Shown piece after piece: positions 1 to 11,640 of a DNA stretch of 11,682 nt; positions within the stretch are counted from its first letter, which is position 1; each line of letters opens with the position of its first letter. The DNA comes from a virus. A program made the translations under genes and the position numbers. A model generated the notes under the pieces. It saw only the letters and a program-made list of their open reading frames with translations. It was not told the DNA's origin and ran no database searches. Location of the stretch: UHGV virus genome UHGV-0087143. One strand, written 5' to 3'.

Positions 1-219
1 CTGATCCTGATCGTCTTGCCTTATTGAATATGATTGCTATTTGCATTTAAAATCGAGACCTGGTTTTTCTACTGAAATGATTATGACTTCAATGACCCTT
101 GAATGAAGTCTATTCGGTTTTCTTTAGATGTTCGCCTCACATAATCTTCAAGTGATGTTCCTTACATCTCCCTAGAGCGTTAAGATAGTTAACTGATTGA
201 GTTTTCAGGGTATGAAAGG

Positions 220-885
220 ATGAGCAACACTACCGACATCTTAAGCACGATAGCTGATATCACTATGGCTGGTACTGCTGTATGGGCTGCATTCAAAGCT
301 AATGATTGGTTTAAAACCAAGCGTCTTGAGAGTGCTGAAAACTTCTATAAAGAAGTACACAATCTCCATAAACGTTACTATTCAGCTATCCAATACGTTG
401 AGGATTCAAGAAGAATATTTGATAGTCAGTATGGGTTGCATTCGCCAATATCTGAACCTAAAGACAAGTCATTGCAATGGGGGGTTAAATCGAACTCTTA
501 CAAAATCATCGCTGAACTAGATTATCTGGCATCGTCACTACAAATGATGGATGCAATGGGTAACAAACTTAGCCCTAAATCGGCTTCACTGGTTAATGAT
601 ATGATGGAAGCACATGGACGATTCTGTAATGATGTGATGAACTTCAATGACTCAGTTTGGAAGGTTATAAGGGCAGGTATAACTGAAGAGAACATCCCAC
701 ATACGCGAGGCTATGTGAACGGCGATTACATGACTATCCTTACCAGTATGGATGAACCTGTAAGAATATCTTTTAGGTTAAAAGAAATCAGTTTTAAAGA
801 TTTTTACCTGCATGAAACTACTATGCAGTCAGTAATAACGAGGCTGAAATCGCTTATCGCCAGAACAGGTAAAAACAGGACATAA
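220..885 (+). CDS. Hypothetical protein, 221 aa, with N-terminal hydrophobic segment (ILSTIADITMAGTAVWAAF)
   Basis: Long ORF from ATG 220; weak SD-like AGGG 9 nt upstream; no domain recognised by eye. The 302-520 track ORF is nested in another frame and treated as spurious. Confidence 0.6.
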   Translation: MSNTTDILSTIADITMAGTAVWAAFKANDWFKTKRLESAENFYKEVHNLHKRYYSAIQYVEDSRRIFDSQYGLHSPISEPKDKSLQWGVKSNSYKIIAELDYLASSLQMMDAMGNKLSPKSASLVNDMMEAHGRFCNDVMNFNDSVWKVIRAGITEENIPHTRGYVNGDYMTILTSMDEPVRISFRLKEISFKDFYLHETTMQSVITRLKSLIARTGKNRT

Positions 886-897
886 ACAGGTTAGTAC

Positions 898-1015
898 CTA
901 TGCAATTTAAAGGCATTTTCCCAAGTATCTATGCAATCCTACACAGATTCTATGCAGTATCGATATAGTCTCTTTTTAGCGTAACCTATTGAAATATATA
1001 GAGAATCTATGAAGT
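898..1015. repeat. Cluster of four CTATG(C/A)A(A/G)T motifs (898-906, 929-937, 950-958, 1007-1015) plus a diverged ~22-bp direct repeat (965-986, 1011-1032)
   Basis: Read directly: cCTATGCAAT, tCTATGCAAT, tCTATGCAGT, tCTATGAAGT, all same strand; atagtctctttttagcgtaacc vs gaagtctcttttcagggtaaac. Confidence 0.5.
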
Positions 1016-1496
1016 CTCTTTTCAGGGTAAACTGTATCGTGTTAGTCGTCCCTCTCCAGACACTACATACAGTGCTATATACAGGGATATATAACGATAT
1101 ATAGTTGTTTGACCACTACCAATATTCCCTCAAAGTGACTATCAAGCTGCTTAACAGTTTCCCATGTGAAAGTTAGGAGGTGATGGTTATAGTTCCTTCG
1201 TAGTTCCTCTTAAAAAATCACTTGCAGACACCTTAATCTCTATACAGATTTCATGTAGAACACGATTAGTACGTAGAAGAGTCATTATGTTAAAAACACA
1301 CTGTGTTTATATCAGTACTGATTTATAAGGGTTTTGTGTATTGGGTGATAAGAGGCTATACAGCACCTTGAGAGCATGTCTTCTAAGTCATTGACATATA
1401 AGGTCACAGAAGTTTGTGTCTGTTACAGAGAAAACTGGACAGGACTTCACAGAACTATAAAATGTTACAGCTATTGATAGGTGAAATCTTCTTGAT

Positions 1497-1553
1497 AGAT
1501 GCTATGAAGTGTGATGAAGGCTTCTTGAGGTGGAGTTAACAGATGCTATGAAG
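1497..1553. repeat. Two perfect copies of 13-mer AGATGCTATGAAG, 44 bp apart (1497-1509, 1541-1553)
   Basis: Exact 13-bp direct repeat; shares the CTATGAAG core with the 898-1015 cluster. Confidence 0.6.
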
Positions 1554-2028
1554 AAAGTCAATAGTTGGTTATAGATATTTTAACTGCTTTTGCAAAGGGG
1601 GGTGCTATATCGTGAATCTGGGGTACTTAACAGCCATCAATCATGAGGTAGATTAGGGGTTGGTACAAGCCCAACTAACCGAATCAACTGTGTAGATATT
1701 TTTTAAGATTATCGGTGAAGGGGGAATGCAGAGGGGGTACTATGATTTTTATAAAAATTTTCAGAAGCCAAATAACCATTGTACAGATTTTATACAATCC
1801 TACCAAGCCTCATAGTTGATTCGATTAGGTGATTCAGTAATGAATTACTTCATGAAGCTAATCTCATAGAAAGCTCTGTAGCGAGTTTTAACCCCATTTT
1901 TAGGGGTAGTCTATAGGGATGTACCACCCACCTTAAAATAAAGGGGTAAAATCGCTTAGAATGCGTTACAGAGCGTCTGAGAAGCTATATTCACAGATTT
2001 TACTAAAGTCTCAGACTTCTAAGTAGTC

Positions 2029-2338
2029 TTTTTAACAGGAGGGGTTCCCCTATGGTCACATATCCCCTCTCTCGTTTAGTGGCCCTTGATAGCACCCGAT
2101 TAATAACCTAGAGAGTATGCCTGTAAAACTTCTGTATCAGGTCAACTATAAGAGGTCTGGATATTACCTTGTAAGATTCCTGGTAGTGATTATGCAGAGG
2201 GCTTGATAAGAGTGTTTAACGGGAGGAAGAGATATCTTTTTAACAGGAGGGTTCTTTCTCATGTATCACCCTCTCTTCCCGCTAAGTAAGCTACACAGAC
2301 CTAGAGAACATGCCTTCACAGCATCTATATCAGGTCAG
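2029..2338. repeat. Two diverged ~100-115-bp modules (about 2029-2145 and 2237-2338), each beginning TTTTTAACAGGAGGG
   Basis: Shared blocks in the same order: TTTTTAACAGGAGGG, CCCTCTCT(C)..TTAG, CCTAGAGA(G/A)(T/C)ATGCCT, TCT(G/A)TATCAGGTCA. Related CTCT(C)TCCCG(C/T)T(A/T)AG boxes recur at about 2727-2740 and 2910-2923. Confidence 0.6.
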
Positions 2339-2425
2339 ATTTAGAGGGTTTTGATAGAGTCTGTAAAGGTACTTGACAGGTAACTATGAAGTTGCTAGGA
2401 AGAGCTGTTTAACGGGAGGAAGAGA
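2213..2425. repeat. Perfect 20-bp direct repeat TGTTTAACGGGAGGAAGAGA (2213-2232 and 2406-2425)
   Basis: Exact match read in sequence; a related GTTTAACGGGGG lies at 3239-3250. Confidence 0.8.
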
Positions 2426-2847
2426 ACCATGAAACCGAAGGTAGGTTCTGTCTTAACAGTGAAGTCTTAAGAAATGTCTTGAGAGTTACCTAAACAAGCC
2501 TCTTAAGTAAAAGACAACACTCCAGAAAGAGTGTCTGTTTAACAAACTTCTCAAAAGCTCTTAAAAAGTCTGTTAAGAGAGGGCTATGTGAACATATCAT
2601 ACCATTTTGTCAATGCTTTTGTCTTTGACCTAAATCAATAAAATGTATCGTTTGATATGGTTTTAAGCAAGACGGCTAAAAAAATCTTTTTAGAGGGGCG
2701 CTTCGCTTGGGGTCACTATGTTCTTTCTCTCCCGTTAAGAGGGAAGTTACAGGGACATTTCAAAGCCCTGATAAGGTAAGCCCGATGATAACAGAAACAG
2801 AGGGCAAAACCACTTATCAACACTGTGAACGAATAACGTAAAGGGCT

Positions 2848-2884
2848 GGTTAAGAAGGTCGGTTAAGAAGGTCGGTTAAGAAGG
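2848..2884. repeat. Tandem array, about 2.8 copies of 13-bp unit GGTTAAGAAGGTC
   Basis: Copies at 2848-2860 and 2861-2873, partial copy 2874-2884; related TTAAGA(A/G)GG boxes at about 2464, 2570, 2735 and 2932. Confidence 0.8.
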
Positions 2885-2950
2885 GAGCTTCCCTTTCTTG
2901 GGTGTCGCTCTTCTCCCGCTTAGTGGATAGCTAAGAAGGCTTGAAGTTAT

Positions 2951-3126
2951 CTGTGAAGGTACTGGACAGTCTTATATATTGGGTGATTACAACTCGTTGA
3001 AAAATAAGTATTTTTAGAAATCACTGTTAAGGTTACAGAGTCAACTGTGAAGAGACTTGTCAGTTCTCTATATTGGGTGATTACAACTTATTGAAAAGTA
3101 AGAACTTTTAGAAATTACTGTCAGAG
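2951..3126. repeat. Two copies of a ~82-bp direct repeat (2951-3032 and 3045-3126), period 94 bp
   Basis: Identical 20-mer core TATATTGGGTGATTACAACT at 2975-2994 and 3069-3088 with ~85% identical flanks; partial third copy TATTGGGTGAT at 1339-1349; CTGTRAAGGTACTTGACAG-like heads also at 2361-2379. Confidence 0.8.
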
Positions 3127-3240
3127 AGGTGAATACTTGATAGATACAGCTTTCCGGTTCTGTCAAGCTATTTTTTAATAGATAGCACAAAATGCTAAAG
3201 ATACCCCTATACCATCTCGTACAGGGGGGGTTGAAGGAGT

Positions 3241-3429
3241 TTAACGGGGGTCTGTGTGGTTATCTGTTCTGGTCCTGTCCTTGAGGTCAAACGACCATTC
3301 ACGACCAAACAATCTGAACACGATAAACACTCTGACGATGAAATAGCGAAGTAGTAAGCCTGCAATCAGCCCAACACCTCCACCAGCCCATACATCAGGT
3401 GACCCCAGCTCAGGAGGGAGATTTACCAT
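3241..3429 (-). CDS. Small predicted membrane protein, 62 aa (one hydrophobic helix GGGVGLIAGLLLRYFIVRVFIVF, charged C-terminus)
   Basis: Track ORF on minus strand, divergent from the 3633 gene; weak SD GAAGG upstream; candidate promoter upstream. Could still be a chance ORF. Confidence 0.3.
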   Translation of the reverse strand: MVNLPPELGSPDVWAGGGVGLIAGLLLRYFIVRVFIVFRLFGREWSFDLKDRTRTDNHTDPR

Positions 3430-3514
3430 TCAATGTACCTTCTGTGTGCAATGCAAAAAAACATGTGACCATTCTCGATAGCCACGCTTCATATTTTCCC
3501 TCTCCCATAAACCC

Positions 3515-3544
3515 ATTATACCATAAATGTTAATAAATTGTTAA
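3515..3544 (-). promoter_or_regulatory. Candidate sigma70-type promoter (minus strand): TTAACA, 18-nt spacer, extended -10 TGGTATAAT
   Basis: Minus-strand -10 TATAAT is the complement of 3515-3520, TG of the extended -10 at 3522-3523, -35 TTAACA is the complement of 3539-3544. Confidence 0.4.
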
Positions 3545-3551
3545 AAAATAC

Positions 3552-3580
3552 TTGACATTAGTCTTTGAAACTGCTAGTAT
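3552..3580 (+). promoter_or_regulatory. Candidate sigma70-type promoter (plus strand): TTGACA, 17-nt spacer, TAGTAT
   Basis: TTGACA at 3552-3557 and TAGTAT at 3575-3580 with exact 17-bp spacing, ~50 nt upstream of the 3633 start codon. Confidence 0.5.
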
Positions 3581-3632
3581 TGTATATATAGTTAACAGGA
3601 AATTAACAAACACTAAGAGGGTCAGAATATGA

Positions 3633-4187
3633 ATGCAGGATTCAGAATTTAGAGCGATGCTTCAGGCATCAAGAGAACGCAACAAGCACAACTCCTACGC
3701 TTACACAGACACCCCCACCAGCTACGAAGTACCAGCCTTTTCCAAAACCGAACGTAAAAACATTGAAGCGGTCATTCGTAGCATTACGCCACGAGACAGA
3801 TTTATGCCAGTACGCAAAGAAAAAGAGAATACTTTAAAAACTTTCTTGATGAGCTTTGATTCTTACGAGCAACTACCATCAAAAATTGAAGATGTAATTA
3901 TCGGTACTTGTCGCAGTCTTGGAAGAGATAATTATCACCGGAAGGTTTTTTATTTACTGCGAAGTCTTGATGAGATTAGTTCAAGCACAGTGACGAGCCA
4001 TCTTCAAAGACAAGCAACCAGACTTAGCTACGAATTACCAAGTGATAAATATTGCGCTAACTTAGCCACTATTTGCATGAAAGTTATTGAGACAATTAAT
4101 CATCATGCGGAAGTTGGAAATATCAGCCTTACAACCAGTGAACCAGACTTTGAATTTGACGTATACGCACAAGCAGAGGAATTTTAA
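3633..4187 (+). CDS. Hypothetical protein, 184 aa, first gene of a rightward operon
   Basis: ORF with SD AAGAGG (3615-3620) upstream of ATG 3633; no domain recognised. The antisense track ORF 4062-4442 is treated as spurious. Confidence 0.65.
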   Translation: MQDSEFRAMLQASRERNKHNSYAYTDTPTSYEVPAFSKTERKNIEAVIRSITPRDRFMPVRKEKENTLKTFLMSFDSYEQLPSKIEDVIIGTCRSLGRDNYHRKVFYLLRSLDEISSSTVTSHLQRQATRLSYELPSDKYCANLATICMKVIETINHHAEVGNISLTTSEPDFEFDVYAQAEEF

Positions 4188-4188
4188 A

Positions 4189-4476
4189 ATGGAAAATAAA
4201 CACACACTAACCAGAGTTACAAAGACAGCCTTTGAAGAACTTAACCGAATCAAAAACATTACAGGTCTGCCACACTCAGCAGTGATGAAGCTTGCAATTA
4301 ACCGTGATATTAACGAACAAGATTTGCTTAATAGTCGCTTAGAGGCTGCAAGACACCATATCAGGATTAAGCAAGATGACCTTGATAGTCTGAAATCTTT
4401 AAATGCTTTTGGACTGGATTTAGCAAGGTTGCTAAGCATCAAAATTCACAAGTTAAAGTTAGAGATGGAGGTTTAA
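4189..4476 (+). CDS. Small putative DNA-binding protein, 95 aa, ribbon-helix-helix-like N-terminus plus C-terminal coiled coil
   Basis: Start chosen at ATG 4189 (GAGGA SD 8 nt upstream, directly after the upstream stop) instead of the overlapping in-frame track start 4087; N-terminal TRVTKTAFEELNRIKNITGLPHSAVMKLAI resembles a strand-helix-helix fold. Motif-level only. Confidence 0.5.
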   Translation: MENKHTLTRVTKTAFEELNRIKNITGLPHSAVMKLAINRDINEQDLLNSRLEAARHHIRIKQDDLDSLKSLNAFGLDLARLLSIKIHKLKLEMEV

Positions 4477-4862
4477 TGTATGACTTTTATAAACATCGTG
4501 ACCATTTGGTAAGATTTGACGGTAAAGTCTGGAAAGACGTAACACAAACCAATAAACCCAAGTTTACCCACCAGCAATTAGCCTCAAGATTTGATATCTG
4601 GACTGAAGCACAAAAAGATAATGGTGATTTCGAGTTTATCAGGGGTTTTGATTATGCTTACGAAGACGACCTTAAAGACGCCATTAAATTAATTGAGAAT
4701 TTCAACTCTATTAAAAATGGTGACAAGCACAAAGCCAATGGCAACAGATACGATAAAGATTTAATCATTGATGCAATCACCAAAGGACAATCACAAAGTT
4801 ATATTTCTGAGAAATACGGTTTATCACGCAGTCAATACTACAAGATTAAAGCGTCTGTGTAA
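4476..4862 (+). CDS. Putative helix-turn-helix DNA-binding protein, 128 aa
   Basis: Start ATG overlaps upstream stop (TAATG, translational coupling); C-terminal IDAITKGQSQSYISEKYGLSRSQYYKIK looks like a resolvase/sigma-region-4-type HTH. Confidence 0.6.
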   Translation: MYDFYKHRDHLVRFDGKVWKDVTQTNKPKFTHQQLASRFDIWTEAQKDNGDFEFIRGFDYAYEDDLKDAIKLIENFNSIKNGDKHKANGNRYDKDLIIDAITKGQSQSYISEKYGLSRSQYYKIKASV

Positions 4863-5000
4863 GCCTGTGAGAATGAGTGAGACTCAAAGATGAGCTACCC
4901 TATTACTAAGGTGTCTCACTCCCTCTGTAACCCGCATGGTTACTGGCCTCAGAATGGCTATTTTGGCAGATTTAAGATGTGTTTTTAGAGGATTTTAAAA

Positions 5001-5324
5001 ATGAACAATTACCCGCTACAGATTTTCGTTGATAGCGACACCGCTCTGATGATTCAGGCTTTCAGTGATTCCGGTGTATCAATTGACTTTGACAGGCTGT
5101 TAAGGCTAATGGCTAATAACTCAGAAACAATTGAAGATTTTATTCAGTCGGTGGAGTTTAACGAGCCTCGAATGATGCTACCAATTAAAGACAGCAACAT
5201 GAAAAGATTGGTTATCGAGCAAACGAACAAATACAGCGTTAGCCCTGAAAGATATCTCAAGGCAGCTATAGCAATTTTGTACGCTGACAATATTTTGGTG
5301 ACGGATTCGAAGGTGGTGCATTAA
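5001..5324 (+). CDS. Hypothetical protein, 107 aa
   Basis: ORF from ATG 5001; no domain recognised. Confidence 0.55.
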   Translation: MNNYPLQIFVDSDTALMIQAFSDSGVSIDFDRLLRLMANNSETIEDFIQSVEFNEPRMMLPIKDSNMKRLVIEQTNKYSVSPERYLKAAIAILYADNILVTDSKVVH

Positions 5325-5389
5325 TGGAATTGGTGATTATCTGTTTTGTATTGATTGGTATGATTGCAGGTGCATCTATTAAAGTATAA
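5324..5389 (+). CDS. Possible 21-aa hydrophobic peptide (MELVIICFVLIGMIAGASIKV)
   Basis: ATG overlaps stop of the 107-aa gene (TAATG); strong SD GAAGGTGG 7 nt upstream; entirely hydrophobic. Below the track length cut-off; speculative. Confidence 0.25.
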   Translation: MELVIICFVLIGMIAGASIKV

Positions 5390-5454
5390 ATGTTACCAAT
5401 CTGTTAAAAAGCTGTTGACAAATAACCTTAAGCATGACATAATTTTAATTATGG

Positions 5455-5481
5455 GAGAGTAATTCTCTCTTATATTTTTTT
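5455..5481 (+). terminator. Candidate rho-independent terminator for the 3633-5389 operon
   Basis: Stem GAGAG/CTCTC (5455-5459 / 5465-5469), loop TAATT, followed by TATATTTTTTT. Confidence 0.4.
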
Positions 5482-5659
5482 CAATAATCCGATGGATGGA
5501 TGGATATTCTGAGTTGGTGAGGTATGTTCTATACCGAACATTCTGAAAGGTGCAATGCTTTTCGCTACATGGCCTCTTATATAACCTGAGAGGTCATCTC
5601 GAAAAGTACTCTTGTTCATTCGTTTGAATCCTTCAGAAGTTTTAATTTCTTCACCTTAT

Positions 5660-5702
5660 GAATAGCCCTTTATAAGAAATTATCTAGGGCTATTCAGTTT
5701 TT
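5660..5702 (+). terminator. Candidate stem-loop/terminator: 10-bp stem GAATAGCCCT / AGGGCTATTC, 16-nt loop, then AGTTTTT
   Basis: Perfect 10-bp inverted repeat at 5660-5669 and 5686-5695; T-run only on the plus strand. Confidence 0.35.
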
Positions 5703-5776
5703 AAAAAGCATACTTGGCAAACCGCCTTTTAAGCCTCTTCTAAGTTCGAGGATGTCAGGTGTGCTTTTTAAAAACT
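5696..5776. promoter_or_regulatory. Perfect 15-bp inverted repeat pair AGTTTTTAAAAAGCA (5696-5710) / TGCTTTTTAAAAACT (5762-5776), 51 bp apart; operator-like
   Basis: Exact reverse complements; each contains the palindrome TTTTTAAAAA; ends 36 bp upstream of the 5812 start codon. Confidence 0.4.
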
Positions 5777-5811
5777 GAAACATAAATTATCTTAGAAGAG
5801 GAAAGGTATTA

Positions 5812-6516
5812 ATGGCTATCCGTGATGAAAATGAAATGATTATTGAAAGCCGACCAAGTGCACTTGATATTCACGAATTAACTTTGCGTGAATCTTTTGA
5901 TAGAGCTTGGCGGGAATCACACGAAGTAAATAAAGGTCCATATATTCCACCAGAACCACTCGAGATTCCAAGAGTTGAAATTGATTTTTCTATGAACGAA
6001 CAGTGTGAACTTGATTTGAAGTTGAAGCTACAACGCCGATATTTCCAAGCTATTAAAGACTCTCAAGAAGCAATGAGAAGTGTTTACGAGAAAATTCAGT
6101 CCAAGCTTGAAGACGAAATCGACGAAATGGCTATTTTGATGGAGCTTCAAACCAATTCTTATGCTTATTTCTCTCGACTAGACCGTGACGGTTGGGGGTA
6201 TGACCCTGTAGAGATTGGTAAAGTGATTGCAGATTTACCAGAAGGTCAAAGGGTTATTCGTACGGAAAGGGCCATCAGAGCGCCACATCGACTGTCTCTA
6301 ATTGTTGCTGATAAATCACAAGCTGAGCTTGAAGAAATTGCCAAAGAGAAACTGATGAAAGCAAGAGAAAATGAGATTAATTTGCTGAAATCAAGACTGG
6401 CTAAGCTGATTAGTGACCATCAAGCGCTGGCTAAGGAGTACCGTCAAGAGTTGGCACAGATTATCAGCTTCAATGATTTTCTGAGTGTTCCACGAGAATT
6501 TAGCAAGGCTGTTTGA
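5812..6516 (+). CDS. Hypothetical acidic protein, 234 aa, with C-terminal coiled-coil-like region
   Basis: ORF with SD GAGGAAAGG upstream of ATG 5812; no domain recognised. Confidence 0.65.
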   Translation: MAIRDENEMIIESRPSALDIHELTLRESFDRAWRESHEVNKGPYIPPEPLEIPRVEIDFSMNEQCELDLKLKLQRRYFQAIKDSQEAMRSVYEKIQSKLEDEIDEMAILMELQTNSYAYFSRLDRDGWGYDPVEIGKVIADLPEGQRVIRTERAIRAPHRLSLIVADKSQAELEEIAKEKLMKARENEINLLKSRLAKLISDHQALAKEYRQELAQIISFNDFLSVPREFSKAV

Positions 6517-6539
6517 TTATGAATTAAAAGAGGTGATTA

Positions 6540-6752
6540 ATGTTTGAAGAACGTTTAGAGACTATTCGGTCTGTTTGCGAAAGACTCCAGCTACAACCAA
6601 ATAGACAAAAGCTACGAATTAAGAATAACCGTCATTACATCACCTCACACAAACCAAAAACACGCAAGATTCCAAAGTGGTGTCTTGATAAATTACCAAG
6701 TGATTGTCAGATTGTCGGTGAAGATGGTAATTATTATCTTGTCAGACATTAA
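6540..6752 (+). CDS. Small basic protein, 70 aa (three Cys, Lys/Arg-rich centre)
   Basis: ORF with SD GAGGTG (6530-6535) before ATG 6540; function unknown. Confidence 0.5.
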   Translation: MFEERLETIRSVCERLQLQPNRQKLRIKNNRHYITSHKPKTRKIPKWCLDKLPSDCQIVGEDGNYYLVRH

Positions 6753-6802
6753 AAAAGAATTGGTTGGGTATATGAGATAGGTTCTATCGAATCTATAGTA
6801 CG

Positions 6803-6844
6803 GGGAGAGATTATCGATATTATTCGGTAGTTTCTCCCTTTTTT
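6803..6844 (+). terminator. Candidate terminator: stem GGGAGA/TCTCCC around a 24-nt loop (containing palindrome TATCGATA), followed by TTTTTT
   Basis: GGGAGA 6803-6808, TCTCCC 6833-6838, T6 at 6839-6844; loop unusually large so strength uncertain. Confidence 0.4.
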
Positions 6845-6893
6845 GTATATGAGGATAGTCTTCTATCCGAAGTCTATGAGGTGAAAAATATGA

Positions 6894-8978
6894 ATGAGCA
6901 AATTTACAGTTGATAGTTTTATTGTTGAGCTGGGCTTCAGTGAAAACGTTATTAAGGGATTGCAAAGAGTTGAAAAGGCAGCTTTGCAGTCAGCACAAAG
7001 AATTGAACGTAATTTGAATAGAGCGTTTAAGGTCGATACCAAGCAACTTGACAGCAATTTAACGGCTTCTTTAAAGTCAATGGAAGGGAAAATTAATAAG
7101 ACCTTTGACAAGATTGAGCAGCGTCTTAAAAACACTAGAGCGTTTAAGATTAAAACGGAAATTGAGGATACTTTAAAGCCACTTAGACAGCCAAGACAGC
7201 CACGAATTAGCGGCAACAGAGCAATCACAGCAGCTTATTCAGCGAATATGAGCAAGTTAAAGGGCTTTGACCCTATTTTGCAGAAATACATCAAATCTCA
7301 GTTTTACGGGCTATCTGCTAAAGCTGGGTCAATGGATAATTCAAAATTCAATGAGAAGTTAGCTCAGCTAAATGCTTCAGTCAGAGAAGCAATCACTAAA
7401 GCCAGAGGTCATACATCCACCAGCAAAAACAATCACAGTGAAAATGCTTCAAATGGTTTAGATGTATTAGCTACAAGTGCAATCAAAGCAGGTACAGCCA
7501 TTTATAGTTTTCAGACAGCCTTAGAAGCTTATAGGAAGGTTATGGAAGTTGGTCTGAAAAAAGAAGCATCACAACGAGCGGCACAATTCGTTTTAGGTGA
7601 TGAAGGTGCTAAACGAGCTACAGAATTTGTTAAGAATCTTGCTGATAGTAGTGGTGTAGACCAGATTGAAACATTAAGCAGTTTTGCTAAGTTTTCCGCT
7701 GGTGCTGGTGATATGAATGCAGACCAGAAAGAATCCTTATTTTCTAATGTGATTGGTACATCCCGACTAATGGGTTTAAGCACTGATGAGATTAACGGGA
7801 TTCTAAAAGCTTTCGAGCAGATGGCGAGCAAGGGCAAGATTCAAGCTGAAGAATTACGCGGTCAGTTAGGGGACAGAATGGCAGGTGCTTTTCAGTTATT
7901 TGCCAGAAGTCTTGGGATGACTACAGAAGAATTAGACAAGGCCATGAAGGACGGTAAGGTTCTTTCTAAAGATGTTCTTCCTAAAGTATCCGCTGAAATG
8001 GGAAGGATGATTGATAAAGCTGGTGGATGGGAAAAGATTATTAACTCTACTCAGACGCAGTTAGGCCGCCTTTCTAATTCATGGAATAATAATCTGGCCT
8101 TAATGTTCGACGGTTCACAGGAAGGTTTAACAGACTTTACAAGGTCACTGACTAATTTACTTAATTCACTAGGTGGTCAATCTAAAAATCTTGGTGAACA
8201 TTTTGGCGACTTGATGAAAAGCATGTCAAACGGTGTTGATGATTTAACCACGATTAGCTACCGAGCACAGGGATTCTTTGACAGAGTGACCCTTGCTTAC
8301 AGAGAATTAAATGACACTCAAAAAGCTGTAGCTGATGGTATCGCAAATGGCCTGTTAAGTGCATTAAAGGGGCTTGCTGGTATAGTCGCTGTAAGGTCTG
8401 GGATTGGTGCTGTAGGTGGTATCTGGAACTTAATTAGGGCTATTTCCACGCTTGGAAATGTAGCAAATACAGCAGCAGGAAGAATCAATTCACGTTCTGC
8501 TGGTAGTGTTGAAGGTGGTAAAGGAAAATTATCTGTAGCTGATGCAATTACCAAAGTAATGATTGTCGGTATGGCAACTGATGTGATTAACTCCATTGTT
8601 AAACCACTCTATGAACGCCAGATGAGTAAGTCAGATAATCCAATTGATAAAGTTGTAAGGTCAAAGGTGGAACCCACAGACCAAGCATTGACTGGTGACA
8701 TGAACTCTTTAGCTGCTGTTTTATGGGCTATGGTTCAGGGCAAATCAAAAGATGTTCCACAGTTTTCACCGGAAGCATTAAATAATCTGAAAGGTCGAGT
8801 GGAAACATTCACACAAGATTTAAAGGTTATCAAGCCGTCAGTAAATATTCAGCCTCAGACAATCAATATCACAACTCAGACGGTACTTGATGGAAAGGTT
8901 ATTGATGAAAGAACCACATCGCATATTAATCGTATGCAGGAAGATACCTTGATTAGCTCAGCTTACCCAGAGGAATAA
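6894..8978 (+). CDS. Phage tail tape measure protein-like, 694 aa
   Basis: Internal segment ...GLSTDEINGILKAFEQMASKGKIQAEELRGQLGDRMAGAFQLFARSLGMTTEELDKAMKDGKV... matches the conserved tape-measure core (ELRGQLGERLPGA-type motif); helical N-terminus and Gly/Ala-rich hydrophobic segment (GIANGLLSALKGLAGIVAVRSGIGAVGGIW) typical of tape measure proteins; SD GAGGTG (6878-6883) before ATG 6894. The four antisense track ORFs inside it are treated as spurious. Confidence 0.8.
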   Translation: MSKFTVDSFIVELGFSENVIKGLQRVEKAALQSAQRIERNLNRAFKVDTKQLDSNLTASLKSMEGKINKTFDKIEQRLKNTRAFKIKTEIEDTLKPLRQPRQPRISGNRAITAAYSANMSKLKGFDPILQKYIKSQFYGLSAKAGSMDNSKFNEKLAQLNASVREAITKARGHTSTSKNNHSENASNGLDVLATSAIKAGTAIYSFQTALEAYRKVMEVGLKKEASQRAAQFVLGDEGAKRATEFVKNLADSSGVDQIETLSSFAKFSAGAGDMNADQKESLFSNVIGTSRLMGLSTDEINGILKAFEQMASKGKIQAEELRGQLGDRMAGAFQLFARSLGMTTEELDKAMKDGKVLSKDVLPKVSAEMGRMIDKAGGWEKIINSTQTQLGRLSNSWNNNLALMFDGSQEGLTDFTRSLTNLLNSLGGQSKNLGEHFGDLMKSMSNGVDDLTTISYRAQGFFDRVTLAYRELNDTQKAVADGIANGLLSALKGLAGIVAVRSGIGAVGGIWNLIRAISTLGNVANTAAGRINSRSAGSVEGGKGKLSVADAITKVMIVGMATDVINSIVKPLYERQMSKSDNPIDKVVRSKVEPTDQALTGDMNSLAAVLWAMVQGKSKDVPQFSPEALNNLKGRVETFTQDLKVIKPSVNIQPQTINITTQTVLDGKVIDERTTSHINRMQEDTLISSAYPEE

Positions 8979-9212
8979 ACAATGTTAGAGCTACTAATAT
9001 TTATTGCCACACATGGCAACCTATTAATCTTTATCTAGTATGACGACTCAACTATGAATAGTCGAATGCTACGTGAAATCTCCTGAACAGATATACCCAC
9101 TGAAAAATAGAATTTACGTAGCTCACGCTTAACAGAGAAAATACTTATATATCAAAGGCTTGGTTAAAAATGACTGAAATACACTAAGTCTTTGAAATCA
9201 AAGGAGAATTTA

Positions 9213-9986
9213 ATGATTTACTCTAATCAGATTCGTTACAGTGGCAAAGATGGCATCTATTTCCACTTAAGAGATAATGTAGATGCCTTCTTAACTTTAT
9301 CAGCAACTGAGAACATGGAATTTGATAGCCCTATGCAGGTGACTACACAGAACATGCAATCAGGGCAAACCGTCACAGATAATGTGCAAAGAGCACCCAG
9401 AACAATCACTATTAGTGGTGTCGTTGTAGTTGGCTATGAAGGAAGCTTATTATTAACTCGTCAGGGTCAATTAGTAGAAAACTTCATCGACACCCTTGAA
9501 AGCTGGCGTGACCAGAAGCAGATTATTTCGGTCATCTGTAAAGATGGTATCAAGATTGATGACTCCATTATTACAAGTTTTAAAGCCTCTAAAGATGTTG
9601 GTATTTCAAATGGTCTAAGAATCCAGCTAACTTTTCAGGAAATTAACTTTAAAGCTGTTGTGGGGCAGACTGATATCTCGGCTGCAACTGGAAAAGCCGC
9701 GACTACGAATGATGGTGGTGTGACCAGTAAAAAGAATGCGGGTAACGTGACCACTGAACGCAATAACGCACCTATGCTGATGTGTCAGGAACTGTACAGT
9801 TACTCAGCATCTGAGCTATCTGATGAAGCGCTAAGGGTCCGTAGCAATTGCTCTAAAAATGTCACGGTGAAAGATGGTGTAAGCACCTTCACAGCCTCAG
9901 CTAATGAGCAGGCTTCAAAAGTGCTTAAGTCGGGTAATGCTTTACGGAAGTTTTCTGTGAATCCGAATAAGAAGGGCACTTATTGA
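9213..9986 (+). CDS. Hypothetical protein, 257 aa, downstream of the tape measure gene (possibly tail-associated by position only)
   Basis: Start chosen at ATG 9213 (SD AAGGAG 6 nt upstream) instead of the in-frame track start at 9192, which is a TTG codon; no domain recognised. Confidence 0.65.
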
Positions 9987-9990
9987 GACA

Positions 9991-10013
9991 TAAAAAGGGG
10001 CTTCATAGCCCCT
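9991..10013 (-). terminator. Rho-independent terminator for the recombinase gene, shared between convergent genes
   Basis: GC-rich stem AGGGGC/GCCCCT (9996-10001 / 10008-10013), 6-nt loop; on the minus strand the stem is followed by a U-run (complement of A-run 9992-9996); lies between the 9986 and 10019 stop codons. Confidence 0.6.
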
Positions 10014-10018
10014 GAAAA

Positions 10019-11539
10019 TTACAGTTGATAAGCGTCAATATCCAGTAGCTCTTTATCAGCAATTTCAAAGATTGGTGACCCATCATTTAGCGGTAACGGG
10101 TTTGTAGGTATGGTGATTTCAGTGTCGTTCTGTAGCGTTACAGTTACCGAATCCTTACCCAATGTAAGCCCTTTTAGATGTTTGGACAAAATCAACTGAC
10201 ACTCGACACGACCCGCTTTAGTTGTCAGGTCAATATCTTTAAGCTGGGGTAGTTCCTTATCAGTGAGTGAAGCCTTACGCCTCATGTTATCAATAGTAGT
10301 CTGTAGTTCTGTGCGCTTCTGGTTAAGTCCCTTCACCTGTGCTTTCAACTCTGTAATGTCATCCATTTCAAGAAGTAGGGCGGTAGCTTTCTTGATTCTG
10401 GCTGTGACAATTTCAACCTCATGCTGTAGAGATGCAATCTTCCCCTCTGCTTCTCCATCATTCCCCACGTCAATCATCCCCAGAAAATTATCAATCATCC
10501 ATCGGTCAAACGGTTTACGCTTCAACGGTGGAACATCACAGCGACCGTCTAAGTGGTTATTGCACCTGTAGACCCCTGCATACTTATTCTTGGTTCCGGT
10601 AGGATGGACACTAGCCCCACACTGACACCGGAATAATCCCTTGAAGATGTTAATCGTTAATGGGTTATCACTTGCAGGTGTGCGGCCTTTACGATTCTTG
10701 TCGAGAATCTCTTGAGCTTTATTGAACGTTGCAGCATCTATAGCGGCTTCGTAGTAGTTCGGTATAGCGGGGCGGTCATTACGCTGTGATGCTGGTAACG
10801 TGCCTATTGTTGTCTCCGACCTTAAGATGGTGCGTACAGAATGGACGCTAAACCCATTAGCATCTTTACGGCGACTAAACGACTTTATACCGTTGCTTTG
10901 AAGGTGACGGGCGATGTTATGCAGACTTTCACCACTTAGCAGCAGCTTGAAAATCAGTCTTACAGTCTCAGCGTGTTCATTGAGTTTGAGAGTATCGGGG
11001 TCAATCCATCCGGGAACCATCTTTGTTAAACGTTGTTTACCAGCAAGGGCAAGTTTTGCACGTTGTTTCCACTTCTCGCTAACACGGAAAGACTTCTGCT
11101 TACTCTCCTGATGCGCTAGGTAGCTTTTAACCCGCTGAATGATTGAGATTCCTAAATCATCGGATAGAGCATCCCTTGTGTAGATTAGCCCATCCTGTAG
11201 AGTGTGAATCTCGATACCATGAGCAATAATGCGATTCATCAAGGCTTCTGTTTCAAGATGCTCTAATCGGCCTATACGGTCGATACTCTCAACTAGCAGA
11301 ATTGTACCTCCTGGAAACTCCCCAGCCTCAATACGGGCTAACATGTCACCAAACTGACCAGTAAGGTGTTTACCTTTGTAACCGGATAGACCCTCATCAC
11401 TGAAAGACGCTACTACTTGAGCATCGCTATTCTTCTTCAACCATTGTTTGAACAGGTCGTTTTGTCGTCTGGTTGAATCAGCACCTTCAGCACCTTGTGT
11501 GGCTGATGAGAATCTCAAGTATGTTATTACGGTTCTCAC
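10019..11539 (-). CDS. int: Large serine recombinase (serine integrase), 506 aa
   Basis: N-terminal resolvase-type catalytic domain with the serine nucleophile motif (YLRFSSATQ) and downstream LLVESIDRIGR; central recombinase region; Cys-rich zinc-ribbon-like segment (CQCGAS...YRCNNHLDGRCD); C-terminal coiled-coil-like region. GTG start with SD GGGAG 9 nt upstream. Antisense track ORFs 10263-10571 and 10914-11111 treated as spurious. Confidence 0.9.
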   Translation of the reverse strand: MRTVITYLRFSSATQGAEGADSTRRQNDLFKQWLKKNSDAQVVASFSDEGLSGYKGKHLTGQFGDMLARIEAGEFPGGTILLVESIDRIGRLEHLETEALMNRIIAHGIEIHTLQDGLIYTRDALSDDLGISIIQRVKSYLAHQESKQKSFRVSEKWKQRAKLALAGKQRLTKMVPGWIDPDTLKLNEHAETVRLIFKLLLSGESLHNIARHLQSNGIKSFSRRKDANGFSVHSVRTILRSETTIGTLPASQRNDRPAIPNYYEAAIDAATFNKAQEILDKNRKGRTPASDNPLTINIFKGLFRCQCGASVHPTGTKNKYAGVYRCNNHLDGRCDVPPLKRKPFDRWMIDNFLGMIDVGNDGEAEGKIASLQHEVEIVTARIKKATALLLEMDDITELKAQVKGLNQKRTELQTTIDNMRRKASLTDKELPQLKDIDLTTKAGRVECQLILSKHLKGLTLGKDSVTVTLQNDTEITIPTNPLPLNDGSPIFEIADKELLDIDAYQL

Positions 11540-11611
11540 GGTGATAAACTCCCATGCAATTGATTATCATTTAAAGATGAACTTATAAACGTTATGGCTA
11601 ATGCTACAATG

Positions 11612-11640
11612 CCGAATAGCTACAATACAATGACCCTTGA
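11612..11640. other. Candidate recombinase attachment-site junction (right end), partner of 90-117
   Basis: CCGAATAG, 8-nt spacer, CAATGACCCTTGA, ~75 bp upstream of the recombinase start; sequence beyond 11640 turns GC-rich (CCTCGCCGCTTCCCCTGGCCGACG). Confidence 0.3.

What the first reader, a model, noticed from the sequence alone, without database searches (positions are those of the whole stretch)
3592..3600. TTAACAGGA box from the repeat modules recurs in the leader of the 3633 operon
TTAACAGGA occurs at 2032-2040 and 2241-2249 at the head of the repeated modules, and again at 3592-3600, 12 nt downstream of the -10 element of the strongest promoter in the window. TTAAC(A/G)GGAGG variants also sit at 2216-2227, 2409-2420 and 3241-3250. 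A common factor may recognise the repeat region and the operon leader, linking the two.
Basis: seen in the sequence. Interest (0 to 1): 0.45.

Follow-up and report, generated by a model that had tools for sequence, protein, structure and literature searches.

The report
ArcA-type operator flanking a satellite promoter
The short box in the operon leader is real, but it is half of a conserved two-part repeat that brackets the main promoter of a small phage-parasite island. The repeat looks like a binding site for the E. coli oxygen-sensing regulator ArcA, and the same repeats crowd the genome ends of the island's likely helper phage.

Summary
The 9-mer TTAACAGGA is present three times. One coordinate is off by 1, and the 3241 "variant" lacks GGAGG.

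The 9-mer is not the functional unit:
- Across 71 related islands, only 9 carry TTAACAGGA in the leader. All 71 keep TTAACA-N5-WTAACA there.
- An inverted twin (3527-3544) sits upstream of the same promoter.
- A third site (5390-5418) overlaps the -35 of the second strong promoter.

I scored these sites with a weight matrix built from 115 ChIP-seq ArcA boxes, which themselves score 9.6-21.5 bits. The three sites score 24.7, 16.4 and 18.2 bits. In 839 kb of family loci and flanks, no other position reaches 18 bits.

The window is a complete 11.5-kb integrative island between yciI and tonB. It carries tail genes related to Felixounavirus. In that phage, the 1.65-kb gene-free region holding the direct terminal repeat contains 26 TGTTA repeats, mostly 11 bp apart.

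The module boxes (TTAACRGGAGG) share only the TTAAC core, occur as single half-sites, and are absent from 24 of 59 relatives.

Verdict: a common factor is plausible, most likely host ArcA-P acting as repressor. The box definition and its link to the modules are not supported.

The parts
3592..3609 (-). Leader operator O_down. Bottom strand reads TTGTTAATTTCCTGTTAA; top strand reads TTAACAggaaaTTAACA. It has two TGTTA direct repeats 11 bp apart and lies about +5 to +22 of P(+).
   Evidence: 16.4 bits with the ArcA-box matrix. The pattern TTAACA-N5-WTAACA occurs only twice in the window against 0.01 expected. It is present in 71 of 71 family loci, with median 17.9 bits over 59 promoter variants.
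3527..3544 (+). Upstream operator O_up, ATGTTAATAAATTGTTAA, the inverted twin of O_down. It lies about -61 to -44 of P(+) and covers the -35 and spacer of the divergent P(-).
   Evidence: 24.7 bits, above the best of 115 ChIP-defined ArcA boxes at 21.5. Median 23.5 bits in 59 variants. It is near-identical (21 of 23) to the wV8 terminal-region sequence TGTTAAGAAATTGTTAAGAAAAT.
3552..3580 (+). P(+), a sigma-70-type promoter: TTGACA, 17-nt spacer, TAGTAT, with TG upstream. It drives the operon starting at 3633.
   Evidence: It is nearly invariant across 59 promoter variants.
3515..3544 (-). P(-), a divergent promoter: TTAACA, 18-nt spacer, TATAAT, with TGG upstream. It drives the 62-aa membrane ORF.
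5390..5418 (+). Third operator with three repeats 11 bp apart (TGTTAC, TGTTAA, TGTTGA). The last repeat overlaps the -35 of the second promoter.
   Evidence: 18.2 bits. Median 18.2 bits in 40 variants, although the sequence just upstream diverges.
5415..5443 (+). P2, a promoter: TTGACA, 17-nt spacer, CATAAT (11/12 match).
2027..2043 (+). Module head box, copy a: TCTTTTTAACAGGAGGG. It is a single TGTTAAAAA half-site on the bottom strand, fused to a purine run.
   Evidence: It aligns with wV8 ~14672-14615 (score 30 against 19 +/- 2.5 for shuffles; none of 200 reached it).
2235..2251 (+). Module head box, copy b. It is identical to copy a over the 17-mer.
2213..2232 (+). Module tail box, copy a: TGTTTAACGGGAGGAAGAGA.
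   Evidence: The core TTTAACGGGRG is in all 15 relatives first examined.
2406..2425 (+). Module tail box, copy b.
886..3240 (.). Gene-free region of about 2.4 kb containing the modules and other repeats. It shares its over-represented words with the helper phage terminal region.
   Evidence: No ORF of 60 aa or more. It is unannotated in all relatives. The top 6-mer is TTAACA and the top 7-mer is TTAACAG. There is no Rfam or tRNA hit.
3241..3429 (-). 62-aa predicted membrane ORF.
   Evidence: It is a CDS in relatives.
3633..4187 (+). First gene of the operon (184 aa, no known domain).

Best explanation
The 3592-3600 box is the promoter-proximal half of an 18-bp operator made of two TGTTA direct repeats 11 bp apart, read on the bottom strand. 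This operator (O_down, about +5 to +22) and an inverted, near-consensus twin (O_up, about -61 to -44) bracket a near-consensus sigma-70 promoter. O_up also covers the -35 of the divergent promoter. A third, three-repeat copy overlaps the -35 of the island's second strong promoter. All three fit the binding site of the host response regulator ArcA-P, which is two to five ATGTTAAAAA-type repeats at 11-bp spacing. The most likely mechanism is that ArcA-P, or a protein with the same specificity, occupies these sites and keeps the island's rightward operons and the divergent small gene shut in the resting lysogen-like state. The same repeats are massed (26 copies) in the gene-free region that holds the direct terminal repeat of Felixounavirus, the island's probable helper phage. 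The 'common factor' therefore links the island's promoters to the helper genome ends rather than to the island's repeat modules. Shown here: the sequence architecture, its conservation, its specificity, its score against real ArcA sites, and its presence in the helper. Inferred: the promoters, ArcA binding, the sign of regulation, and any role of the helper arrays.
For: (1) TTAACA-N5-WTAACA occurs exactly twice in the window, at 3528-3544(-) and 3592-3608(+), against 0.01 expected.
(2) All 71 family loci that contain the promoter keep the leader repeat with fixed 11-bp spacing. The 5-nt spacer varies (GAATA, GAGAA, GGAAA, GAGGA, GATGA and others), which is a footprint-like pattern. This holds in members whose downstream protein is only 64-65% identical.
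(3) PMC4173790 and PMC3798270 state that the minimal ArcA site is two 10-bp repeats, 5'-ATGTTAAAAA-1-ATGTTAAAAA-3', 11 bp centre to centre. Most sites have one to three extra repeats at 11 or 22 bp, with TGTTA the most conserved part.
(4) A matrix built from 115 ArcA boxes in Table S3 of PMC3798270 scores those sites at 9.6-21.5 bits, median 15.7. It scores the window sites at 24.7, 16.4 and 18.2 bits. Shuffles give 0.15 hits of 16 bits or more.
(5) In 38 full-length relatives, hits of 15 bits or more recur only at these three places. In 839 kb of loci plus flanks, all 143 hits of 18 bits or more are these sites.
(6) Both rightward promoters are near-consensus with TG. They therefore need a repressor that is already present before infection, which means a host or island protein.
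(7) Helper link: the wV8 region 13884-15531 has 12 hits of 13 bits or more against 0.32 expected, the best at 22.7, 22.5 and 21.1 bits. There are 12 such hits in the other 86.8 kb. Of 12 YTAACA-N5-YTAACA matches in wV8 1-45000, 11 lie in 14357-15125.
(8) The 581-bp terminal repeat of phage D4 maps to this wV8 region, and its left end starts beside three repeats.
Against: - No binding or expression data exist. The promoters are consensus predictions only.
- A matrix match cannot tell ArcA apart from another protein that reads TGTTA repeats at 11 bp, such as another OmpR/PhoB-family regulator or an island or phage protein.
- Many repeats in both island and phage have C before and G after the core (CTGTTAAG). 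This is tolerated by ArcA but not preferred, and it could point to a different protein.
- It is not obvious why a lytic phage would load its terminal repeat region with sites for a host redox regulator.
- O_up coincides with the position and A-tract of an UP element, which could contribute to its conservation.
Confidence: 0.55

Rival explanations
1. Same operator architecture, but the reader of the repeats is not ArcA. It would be a dedicated DNA-binding protein of the island or of the helper phage. Island candidates are the small products of 4189-4476 or 4476-4862, the latter with a weak HTH match. Such a protein would bind both the island promoters and the helper terminal-repeat arrays. It could act as an autorepressor that also interferes with helper packaging, or as a helper terminal-region protein that switches the island on.
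For: The repeats are concentrated in the helper terminal region, where a phage-specific protein would be expected. There is a consistent CTGTTAAG flavour in both elements. ORF128 has a weak HTH_28 hit (E = 0.003, below the family cut-off).
Against: The flanks as well as the core match the ArcA logo. In the commonest variant the second repeat of O_up is exactly ATGTTAAAAA. The only island proteins with helper homologues are the tape measure and the Dit-like protein. No OmpR-family-like protein was detected in wV8 or the island by tblastn, which is a weak test. A helper-encoded protein cannot be the repressor needed before infection.
Confidence: 0.28
2. One reading: an 9-11-nt box TTAAC(A/G)GGA(GG) is the recognition unit, and one factor ties the repeat modules to the operon leader.
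For: The 9-mer occurs 3 times against 0.16 expected. Head and tail boxes are conserved in many relatives. The head box aligns with a repeat of a helper two-repeat site.
Against: Only 9 of 71 leaders have GGA after TTAACA. In the modules the GGAGG belongs to a purine arm that stays when TTAACAG is replaced, as in L010 and L017, which read TTTTAAGTAGGAGGGG. The head box is absent in 24 of 59 relatives. Two of the three copies are paralogues. The module boxes have no partner repeat.
Confidence: 0.07
3. RNA-level element. The head and tail boxes pair with the pyrimidine tracts (CCCTCTCTYCCCGYTWAG) inside a structured or switchable RNA. A pyrimidine-tract RNA could also pair with the leader box and ribosome-binding site, in the manner of phage P4 seqA/seqB/seqC immunity.
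For: The pyrimidine tract is complementary to both boxes (repeats I6 and I11). RNAalifold pairs them. Seven pairs show double changes against 3.8 +/- 1.3 in shuffles (13 of 500), and 93% of cells are paired. In L007 and L016 the head hairpin is replaced by an unrelated hairpin at the same place.
Against: The consensus energy is only -10.7 kcal/mol, with a covariation term of -0.87. Most double changes come from one lineage (L005/L015). The tail box is invariant, so it cannot covary. There is no Rfam match. The leader conservation pattern (cores fixed, spacer free, inverted twin upstream of the start site) is that of a DNA site, not an RNA target.
Confidence: 0.08
4. Chance recurrence of an A+T-rich word with no function.
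For: After allowing for the duplicated module there are only two independent 9-mer occurrences.
Against: Conservation in 71 of 71 loci, fixed spacing, an inverted twin, a third site, and no other hit of 18 bits or more in 839 kb.
Confidence: 0.02

Closest known systems
ArcA-P operators of E. coli, e.g. icdA P1 (three repeats from -12 to +21), cydA, sdhC/gltA (PMC3798270, PMC4173790)
   Same: Both have two to three TGTTA-core direct repeats at 11-bp centre-to-centre spacing, A+T-rich flanks, and positions overlapping or just downstream of sigma-70 promoter elements. Scores fall within or above the range of ChIP-defined sites.
   Different: These sites lie on a mobile island rather than a respiratory gene. 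O_up is closer to consensus than any of the 115 chromosomal boxes used. According to PMC4173790, such strong sites lose oxygen dependence and are repressed even aerobically. Two inverted sites bracket one promoter. Binding is untested.
ArcA (SfrA) control of the transfer-operon promoter of F-like plasmids (PMC7303359, seen; role recalled from general knowledge)
   Same: A mobile element borrows the host ArcA protein to control its own main operon.
   Different: There ArcA acts as a co-activator with TraJ. Here the geometry (-35 overlap and a downstream site) predicts repression.
PLE satellites of Vibrio cholerae, parasites of lytic phage ICP1 (PMC7145576, PMC9638900; listed)
   Same: Both are small islands with a large serine recombinase, and both are about one-eighth of the genome of a virulent myovirus. 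Both have a sizeable gene-free repeat region. PLE's repeat region serving as its origin is recalled from memory.
   Different: No replication initiator is recognisable here. This island carries tape-measure and Dit-like tail genes related to the helper. No excision, packaging or interference data exist.
SaPI/PICI master-repressor region (Stl operators between divergent promoters; general knowledge)
   Same: Operators lie between and over two divergent promoters that gate the island's life cycle.
   Different: No island-encoded repressor gene is evident. The leftward gene encodes a 62-aa membrane protein, and the sites match a host regulator.
Phage P4 seqA/seqB/seqC RNA immunity (general knowledge)
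   Same: A short sequence is repeated upstream and downstream of a complementary tract in an untranslated region of a satellite.
   Different: Covariation support is weak. The leader box behaves as a DNA site.

Membership tests
ArcA-P binding site (ArcA box) | At least two direct repeats with a TGTTA core | tested here: met
   3527-3544 has TGTTA twice. 3592-3609(-) has TGTTA twice. 5390-5418 has TGTTA, TGTTA and TGTTG.
ArcA-P binding site (ArcA box) | 11-bp centre-to-centre spacing of repeats (12 bp is not tolerated, per PMC3798270) | tested here: met
   The spacing is exactly 11 bp at all three sites and in 71 of 71 leaders.
ArcA-P binding site (ArcA box) | Information score within the range of ChIP-defined boxes (at least about 9-10 bits) | tested here: met
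   24.7, 16.4 and 18.2 bits, against 9.6-21.5 for 115 real boxes scored with the same matrix. Family medians are 23.5, 17.9 and 18.2 bits.
ArcA-P binding site (ArcA box) | Location overlapping or adjacent to sigma-70 promoter elements | tested here: inconclusive
   The sites overlap the -35 of P(-) and of P2 and lie at about +5 to +22 of P(+). The promoters, however, are consensus predictions only.
ArcA-P binding site (ArcA box) | Phosphorylation-dependent binding by ArcA and arcA-dependent expression | not testable with these tools
   This needs footprinting or EMSA and reporter assays.
Phage satellite (PLE/PICI-like integrative element) | Integrase and flanking attachment repeats at a fixed chromosomal site | tested here: met
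   There is a 506-aa large serine recombinase. A 13-bp repeat, CAATGACCCTTGA, lies at 90-102 and 11628-11640. The flanks are contiguous yciI-tonB DNA.
Phage satellite (PLE/PICI-like integrative element) | Lacks a full virion gene set but carries genes related to a specific helper | tested here: met
   Only the tape measure (30% aa identity) and the Dit-like protein (78% aa; 95% nt over 510 bp) match Felixounavirus wV8 gp73/gp74.
Phage satellite (PLE/PICI-like integrative element) | Excised or episomal form exists | tested here: inconclusive
   One metagenome contig, L052, is circular by its 55-nt terminal overlap and is circularly permuted relative to the window. The sample type is unknown.
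Phage satellite (PLE/PICI-like integrative element) | Helper-dependent induction, packaging and transfer | not testable with these tools
   This needs infection experiments.
Known structured RNA family (Rfam) | Covariance-model match | tested here: not met
   No hit lies in 886-3640. The best window hit has E = 0.086 and is elsewhere.

The most novel reading that the evidence does not exclude
An undescribed family of about 11.5-kb satellites of virulent Felix O1-like phages has no repressor of its own. It is held silent by the host regulator ArcA at super-consensus operators. The helper phage betrays itself through its DNA: the roughly 26 ArcA-type repeats in each terminal-repeat region of the replicating phage genome titrate ArcA-P off the island promoters and induce the satellite. 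The satellite's 2.4-kb gene-free region, which shares the helper terminal region's word grammar, then serves as its mimic of the helper's replication or packaging signals.
Probability: 0.12. Interest if true: 0.85.

Novelty: new member of a known kind. Interest (0 to 1): 0.58.

Why it matters
If ArcA reads these sites, this would be a mobile phage-parasite whose on/off switch is wired to the host's oxygen and redox sensing, and a virulent phage whose genome ends are coated with the same host regulator. I found neither described in the searched literature. It gives a directly testable entry point into how satellites of strictly lytic coliphages stay silent and sense their helper: three small operators, one host gene, and available Felixounavirus isolates. 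It would also explain a conserved but unremarked 1.65-kb gene-free region in a phage genus widely used for typing and biocontrol. For annotation, it shows that the island between yciI and tonB, labelled only 'hypothetical / tape measure / recombinase' in E. coli genomes, is a coherent element.

Tried and rejected
- **Rfam scan** at E <= 1: nothing in the non-coding region.
- **tRNA/tmRNA scan:** none.
- **Small ORFs behind the AGGAGG of head and tail boxes:** frames and start codons are not conserved. Indels are not multiples of three, and the tail box is followed by ATG in only some relatives. Rejected.
- **DNA similarity of 886-3632 to phages:** blastn in distant mode gave no match. A local sensitive blastn gave no significant hit in the helper non-coding region. 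The resemblance is therefore in repeated words, not colinear homology.
- **Profile nhmmer:** it gave only borderline, high-bias hits (E = 8e-5 and 0.011). Both fall inside the terminal repeat.
- **Conserved RNA structure of the modules:** weak.
- **Nus-factor boxA idea:** the rrn boxA TGCTCTTTAACAA, recalled from memory, resembles GTCTGTTTAACAAAC at 2536 and the head box. I dropped it because the GCTCTT part is not present or conserved and the 2536 copy is not conserved in relatives. It was not formally tested.
- **ArcA-like protein encoded by phage or island:** no tblastn hit better than E = 0.87.
- **Literature:** searches for this island family, or for any description of the Felix O1/wV8 gene-free region, found nothing.
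- **Genome-contig scan** with the 184-aa protein: it found only one further species, E. albertii.

Full report
**1. The observation**

TTAACAGGA occurs exactly at 2032-2040, 2240-2248 and 3592-3600. That is 3 matches against 0.16 expected, and none of 200 shuffles reached 3.

TTAACGGGAGG is at 2216-2226 and 2409-2419, and a one-mismatch copy lies on the minus strand at 2728-2738. The '3241' variant is TTAACGGGGG. It lacks GGAGG and is simply the stop-codon end of a minus-strand 62-aa ORF (3241-3429) that RefSeq annotates in several relatives.

The first two 9-mers sit in two copies of a ~190-nt module that are allelic variants placed in tandem. The 9-mer therefore has only two independent occurrences.

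The robust signal is the core:
- TTAACAG occurs 14 times against 2.7 expected.
- TTAACA is the most over-represented 6-mer in 886-3640 (9 against 1.38), and TTAACAG the most over-represented 7-mer (7 against 0.37).

**2. What the window is**

Both ends of the window are contiguous E. coli chromosome next to tonB. A 13-bp repeat, CAATGACCCTTGA, lies at 90-102 and 11628-11640.

Between these repeats lies an 11.5-kb island with the following parts:
- a large serine recombinase (10019-11539, minus strand);
- a tape measure protein (6894-8978);
- a Dit-like protein (9213-9986);
- several orphan genes;
- a 2.4-kb stretch (886-3240) with no ORF of 60 aa or more, no Rfam hit and no tRNA.

The Dit-like gene is about 95% identical in DNA over 510 bp to a gene of more than 200 Felixounavirus genomes. 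In phage wV8 that gene (gp74) directly follows the tape measure gene (gp73). These two are the only island proteins with wV8 homologues.

Related islands with the same layout, including the gene-free stretch, sit at the same yciI-tonB site in many complete E. coli genomes. The first operon protein has 1088 90%-identity clusters, nearly all from E. coli or Shigella.

One metagenome contig (L052, 11,233 bp) has a 55-nt terminal overlap and is circularly permuted relative to the window. An excised or concatemeric form therefore exists.

I read the island as a satellite-like parasite of Felix O1-like phages. I found no paper describing it.

**3. The leader box in its family context**

I aligned the promoter region from 71 family loci, giving 59 distinct sequences. 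Three things stand out:
- The promoter (TTGACA, 17-nt spacer, TAGTAT, with TG upstream) is nearly invariant.
- The leader always carries TTAACA-N5-(T/A)TAACA with fixed 11-bp spacing, while the five spacer bases vary.
- Only 9 of 71 leaders have GGA after TTAACA. The rest read TTAACAGAA or TTAACAGAG.

In the window this pattern occurs exactly twice, against 0.01 expected. One copy is at 3592-3608 on the plus strand. The other is at 3528-3544 on the minus strand, just upstream of the -35. The same pair is found in the relatives. The two copies are inverted with respect to each other and about 64 bp apart. The upstream copy also covers the -35 and spacer of a divergent near-consensus promoter, P(-) at 3544-3515.

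**4. Identity of the repeat**

On the bottom strand the repeat reads TGTTAA-N5-TGTTAA. Two papers define the ArcA-P site. According to PMC4173790 and PMC3798270:
- The minimal site is two 10-bp direct repeats, 5'-ATGTTAAAAA-1-ATGTTAAAAA-3', 11 bp centre to centre.
- TGTTA is the most conserved part.
- Most sites carry one to three further repeats at 11 or 22 bp.

I built a weight matrix from the 115 ArcA boxes readable in Table S3 of PMC3798270. Those sites score 9.6-21.5 bits, with a median of 15.7.

| Site (window) | Sequence | Score (bits) | Family median (bits) |
|---|---|---|---|
| 3527-3544 (+), O_up | ATGTTAATAAATTGTTAA | 24.7 | 23.5 (59 variants) |
| 3592-3609 (-), O_down | TTGTTAATTTCCTGTTAA | 16.4 | 17.9 (59 variants) |
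| 5390-5407 (+), P2 site | ATGTTACCAATCTGTTAA | 18.2 | 18.2 (40 variants) |

The window scores are and the family medians. At the third site a further repeat overlaps the -35 of the second strong promoter (5415-5443). Shuffled windows give 0.15 hits of 16 bits or more.

Two specificity controls support these sites:
- In 38 full-length loci, hits of 15 bits or more recur only at these three places.
- In 839 kb of loci plus chromosomal flanks, all 143 hits of 18 bits or more are these sites.

Sequence, spacing, score and position thus meet the definition of an ArcA box. Binding could not be tested.

**5. The helper phage**

wV8 has a 1.65-kb region without annotated genes (13884-15531) between convergent gene blocks. 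Read on its minus strand, this region is packed with (C/T)TAACA words, 26 in all. They are mostly 11 bp apart, or sit at about 20-22 bp.

- TTAACA occurs 17 times against 0.98 expected, and TAACAA 19 times against 0.89. These are the region's top two 6-mers.
- Of 12 YTAACA-N5-YTAACA matches in the first 45 kb, 11 lie in 14357-15125 (expected 0.03). Only 2 occur in the other half of the genome.
- With the ArcA matrix, the region has 12 hits of 13 bits or more against 0.32 expected. The best are 22.7, 22.5 and 21.1 bits. The remaining 86.8 kb also has 12.

The record of phage vB_EcoM_D4 carries an exact 581-bp repeat at both ends that maps to wV8 14351-14953. Its authors report direct terminal repeats from PhageTerm (PMC11737134). 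The left physical end reads GCCCCCTTAACATTTTCTTAACAATTTCTTAACAACCCC, and the other repeat boundary is ...GGTAGCCCTTAACA.

The same repeat that brackets the island's promoter is therefore the dominant word of the helper's terminal-repeat region. O_up is 21 of 23 identical to a three-repeat stretch there.

**6. The module boxes**

The head box (TCTTTTTAACAGGAGGG) and tail box (TGTTTAACGGGAGGAAGAG) are conserved in many relatives. Several features separate them from the promoter operators:
- They are single half-sites with no partner at 11 bp, and they do not score as two-repeat sites.
- In the modules, GGAGG belongs to a purine arm facing a pyrimidine tract. This arm persists where TTAACAG is lost, as in L010 and L017.
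- The head box is missing from 24 of 59 relatives, and only 2 carry two copies.

The head box with its downstream GGTCAC-TAT-pyrimidine tract aligns with wV8 ~14672-14615 (TAATCTTTTTAACAAGCTATTAACATGGTCACTATCTC...). The score is 30 against 19 +/- 2.5 for shuffles, and none of 200 shuffles reached it. In the phage, the corresponding TTAACA is one repeat of a 17.7-bit two-repeat site.

I therefore regard the head box as a relic half-site from helper-like terminal-region sequence, embedded in a gene-free region that shares the helper region's word grammar. It is not evidence that the modules and the operon are co-regulated.

A structured-RNA reading of the modules is not excluded but is weak:
- The consensus energy is -10.7 kcal/mol, with a covariation term of -0.87.
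- Seven pairs have double changes against 3.8 +/- 1.3 in shuffles (13 of 500), mostly from one lineage.

**7. Mechanism proposed**

Shown:
- three conserved, highly specific TGTTA-repeat sites positioned on two predicted near-consensus promoters and one divergent promoter;
- the same repeats massed at the helper genome ends.

Inferred:
- A dimeric, tandem-binding regulator occupies O_up and O_down, and the P2 site, and represses.
- Near-consensus promoters on a quiescent island need a repressor that is present before infection, so it must come from the host or the island.
- ArcA-P is the best candidate, because core, flanks, spacing and multi-repeat architecture all fit.
- PMC4173790 reports that near-consensus repeats make ArcA repression strong and largely oxygen-independent. 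That would suit a maintenance repressor.

Open questions:
- whether the helper arrays recruit ArcA for the phage's own ends, or titrate it and thereby induce the island;
- whether a dedicated island or phage protein with the same specificity is the true reader.

**8. Verdict**

The box is real and lies in a functional-looking element.

The operator itself is a new member of a known kind, an ArcA-type direct-repeat operator. Its setting is unusual and worth experimental follow-up: an apparently undescribed satellite family, and the terminal repeats of its virulent helper phage.

Noticed in passing
window 90-11640: The whole window is one 11.5-kb integrative island between yciI and tonB. It has 13-bp att repeats (CAATGACCCTTGA), a large serine recombinase, and tape-measure and Dit-like tail genes related to Felixounavirus gp73/gp74. 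It looks like an undescribed satellite family that is common in E. coli and Shigella.
   Followed up: partly
L052 (metagenome contig ERZ506742 NODE_633), whole contig: This is a circular contig (55-nt terminal overlap, 11,178 bp unique) of a family member. It has the same gene set but a different 547-aa serine recombinase (27% identity) and no left-end cargo gene. It is evidence for an excised or concatemeric form.
   Followed up: partly
L011 (wV8) 13884-15531; L013/L014 (phage D4 ends): Felixounavirus has a 1.65-kb gene-free region containing the 581-bp direct terminal repeat. The region holds 26 TGTTA repeats, mostly at 11-bp spacing, and the physical left end begins right beside three of them. 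The Felix O1 and wV8 genome papers I read do not describe this.
   Followed up: partly
window 886-3240: This is a 2.4-kb gene-free region conserved at 75-95% identity in all relatives. It contains four related ~50-nt units (at about 2036, 2244, 2692 and 2880), each with a purine arm, GGTCAC and a pyrimidine tract. Its function is unknown. It may mimic the helper's replication or packaging signals, since no replication protein is recognisable in the island.
   Followed up: partly
window 2945-3027 and 3039-3121: Two 83-nt direct repeats (82% identical to each other) are conserved as a pair in every relative aligned. Each contains CTGTGAAG...TATATTGGGTGATTACAAC.
   Followed up: no
window 2848-2886: There is a tandem 13-bp repeat, GGTTAAGAAGGTC, in three copies. 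The copy number varies among relatives (more in L003, fewer in L004). Its reverse strand, CCTTCTTAAC, is also a recurring word in the helper terminal region.
   Followed up: no
window 3204-3227: The terminator-like hairpin after the 62-aa ORF appears in two forms among relatives, with the inner stem and loop reverse-complemented (CCCCTATACCATCTCGTACAGGGG versus CCCCTGTACGAGATGGTATAGGGG). The hairpin is kept while its interior is flipped.
   Followed up: no
window 220-885 and the same position in L004-L009: The left end is a variable cargo slot. It holds a 221-aa orphan here and a small resolvase/invertase-type recombinase, in either orientation, in others. Further insertions occur inside the gene-free region, including a Dam-like methyltransferase in L005 and an AP2-domain protein in L007.
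   Followed up: no
L007 2710-2800 and L016 2541-2630: In these relatives the head box and GGAGGGG/CCCCTCT hairpin are replaced by an unrelated perfect hairpin (GATGCTC-TTATTGTAG-GAGCATC) at the same place before the pyrimidine tract. This hints that a hairpin, rather than the sequence, matters there.
   Followed up: no
window 3465-3485 (minus strand) and 5450-5474 (plus strand): Terminator-like hairpins sit immediately downstream of P(-) and of P2. They are possible attenuators in the leaders of both transcripts. In many relatives a 110-130-nt insertion lies between P(-) and the 62-aa ORF.
   Followed up: no
window 4476-4862 versus L001, L003, L004, L006, L008, L009: The 128-aa gene with a weak HTH match is replaced in many relatives by a small ORF plus an HNH endonuclease gene. 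This suggests module swapping inside the operon.
   Followed up: no
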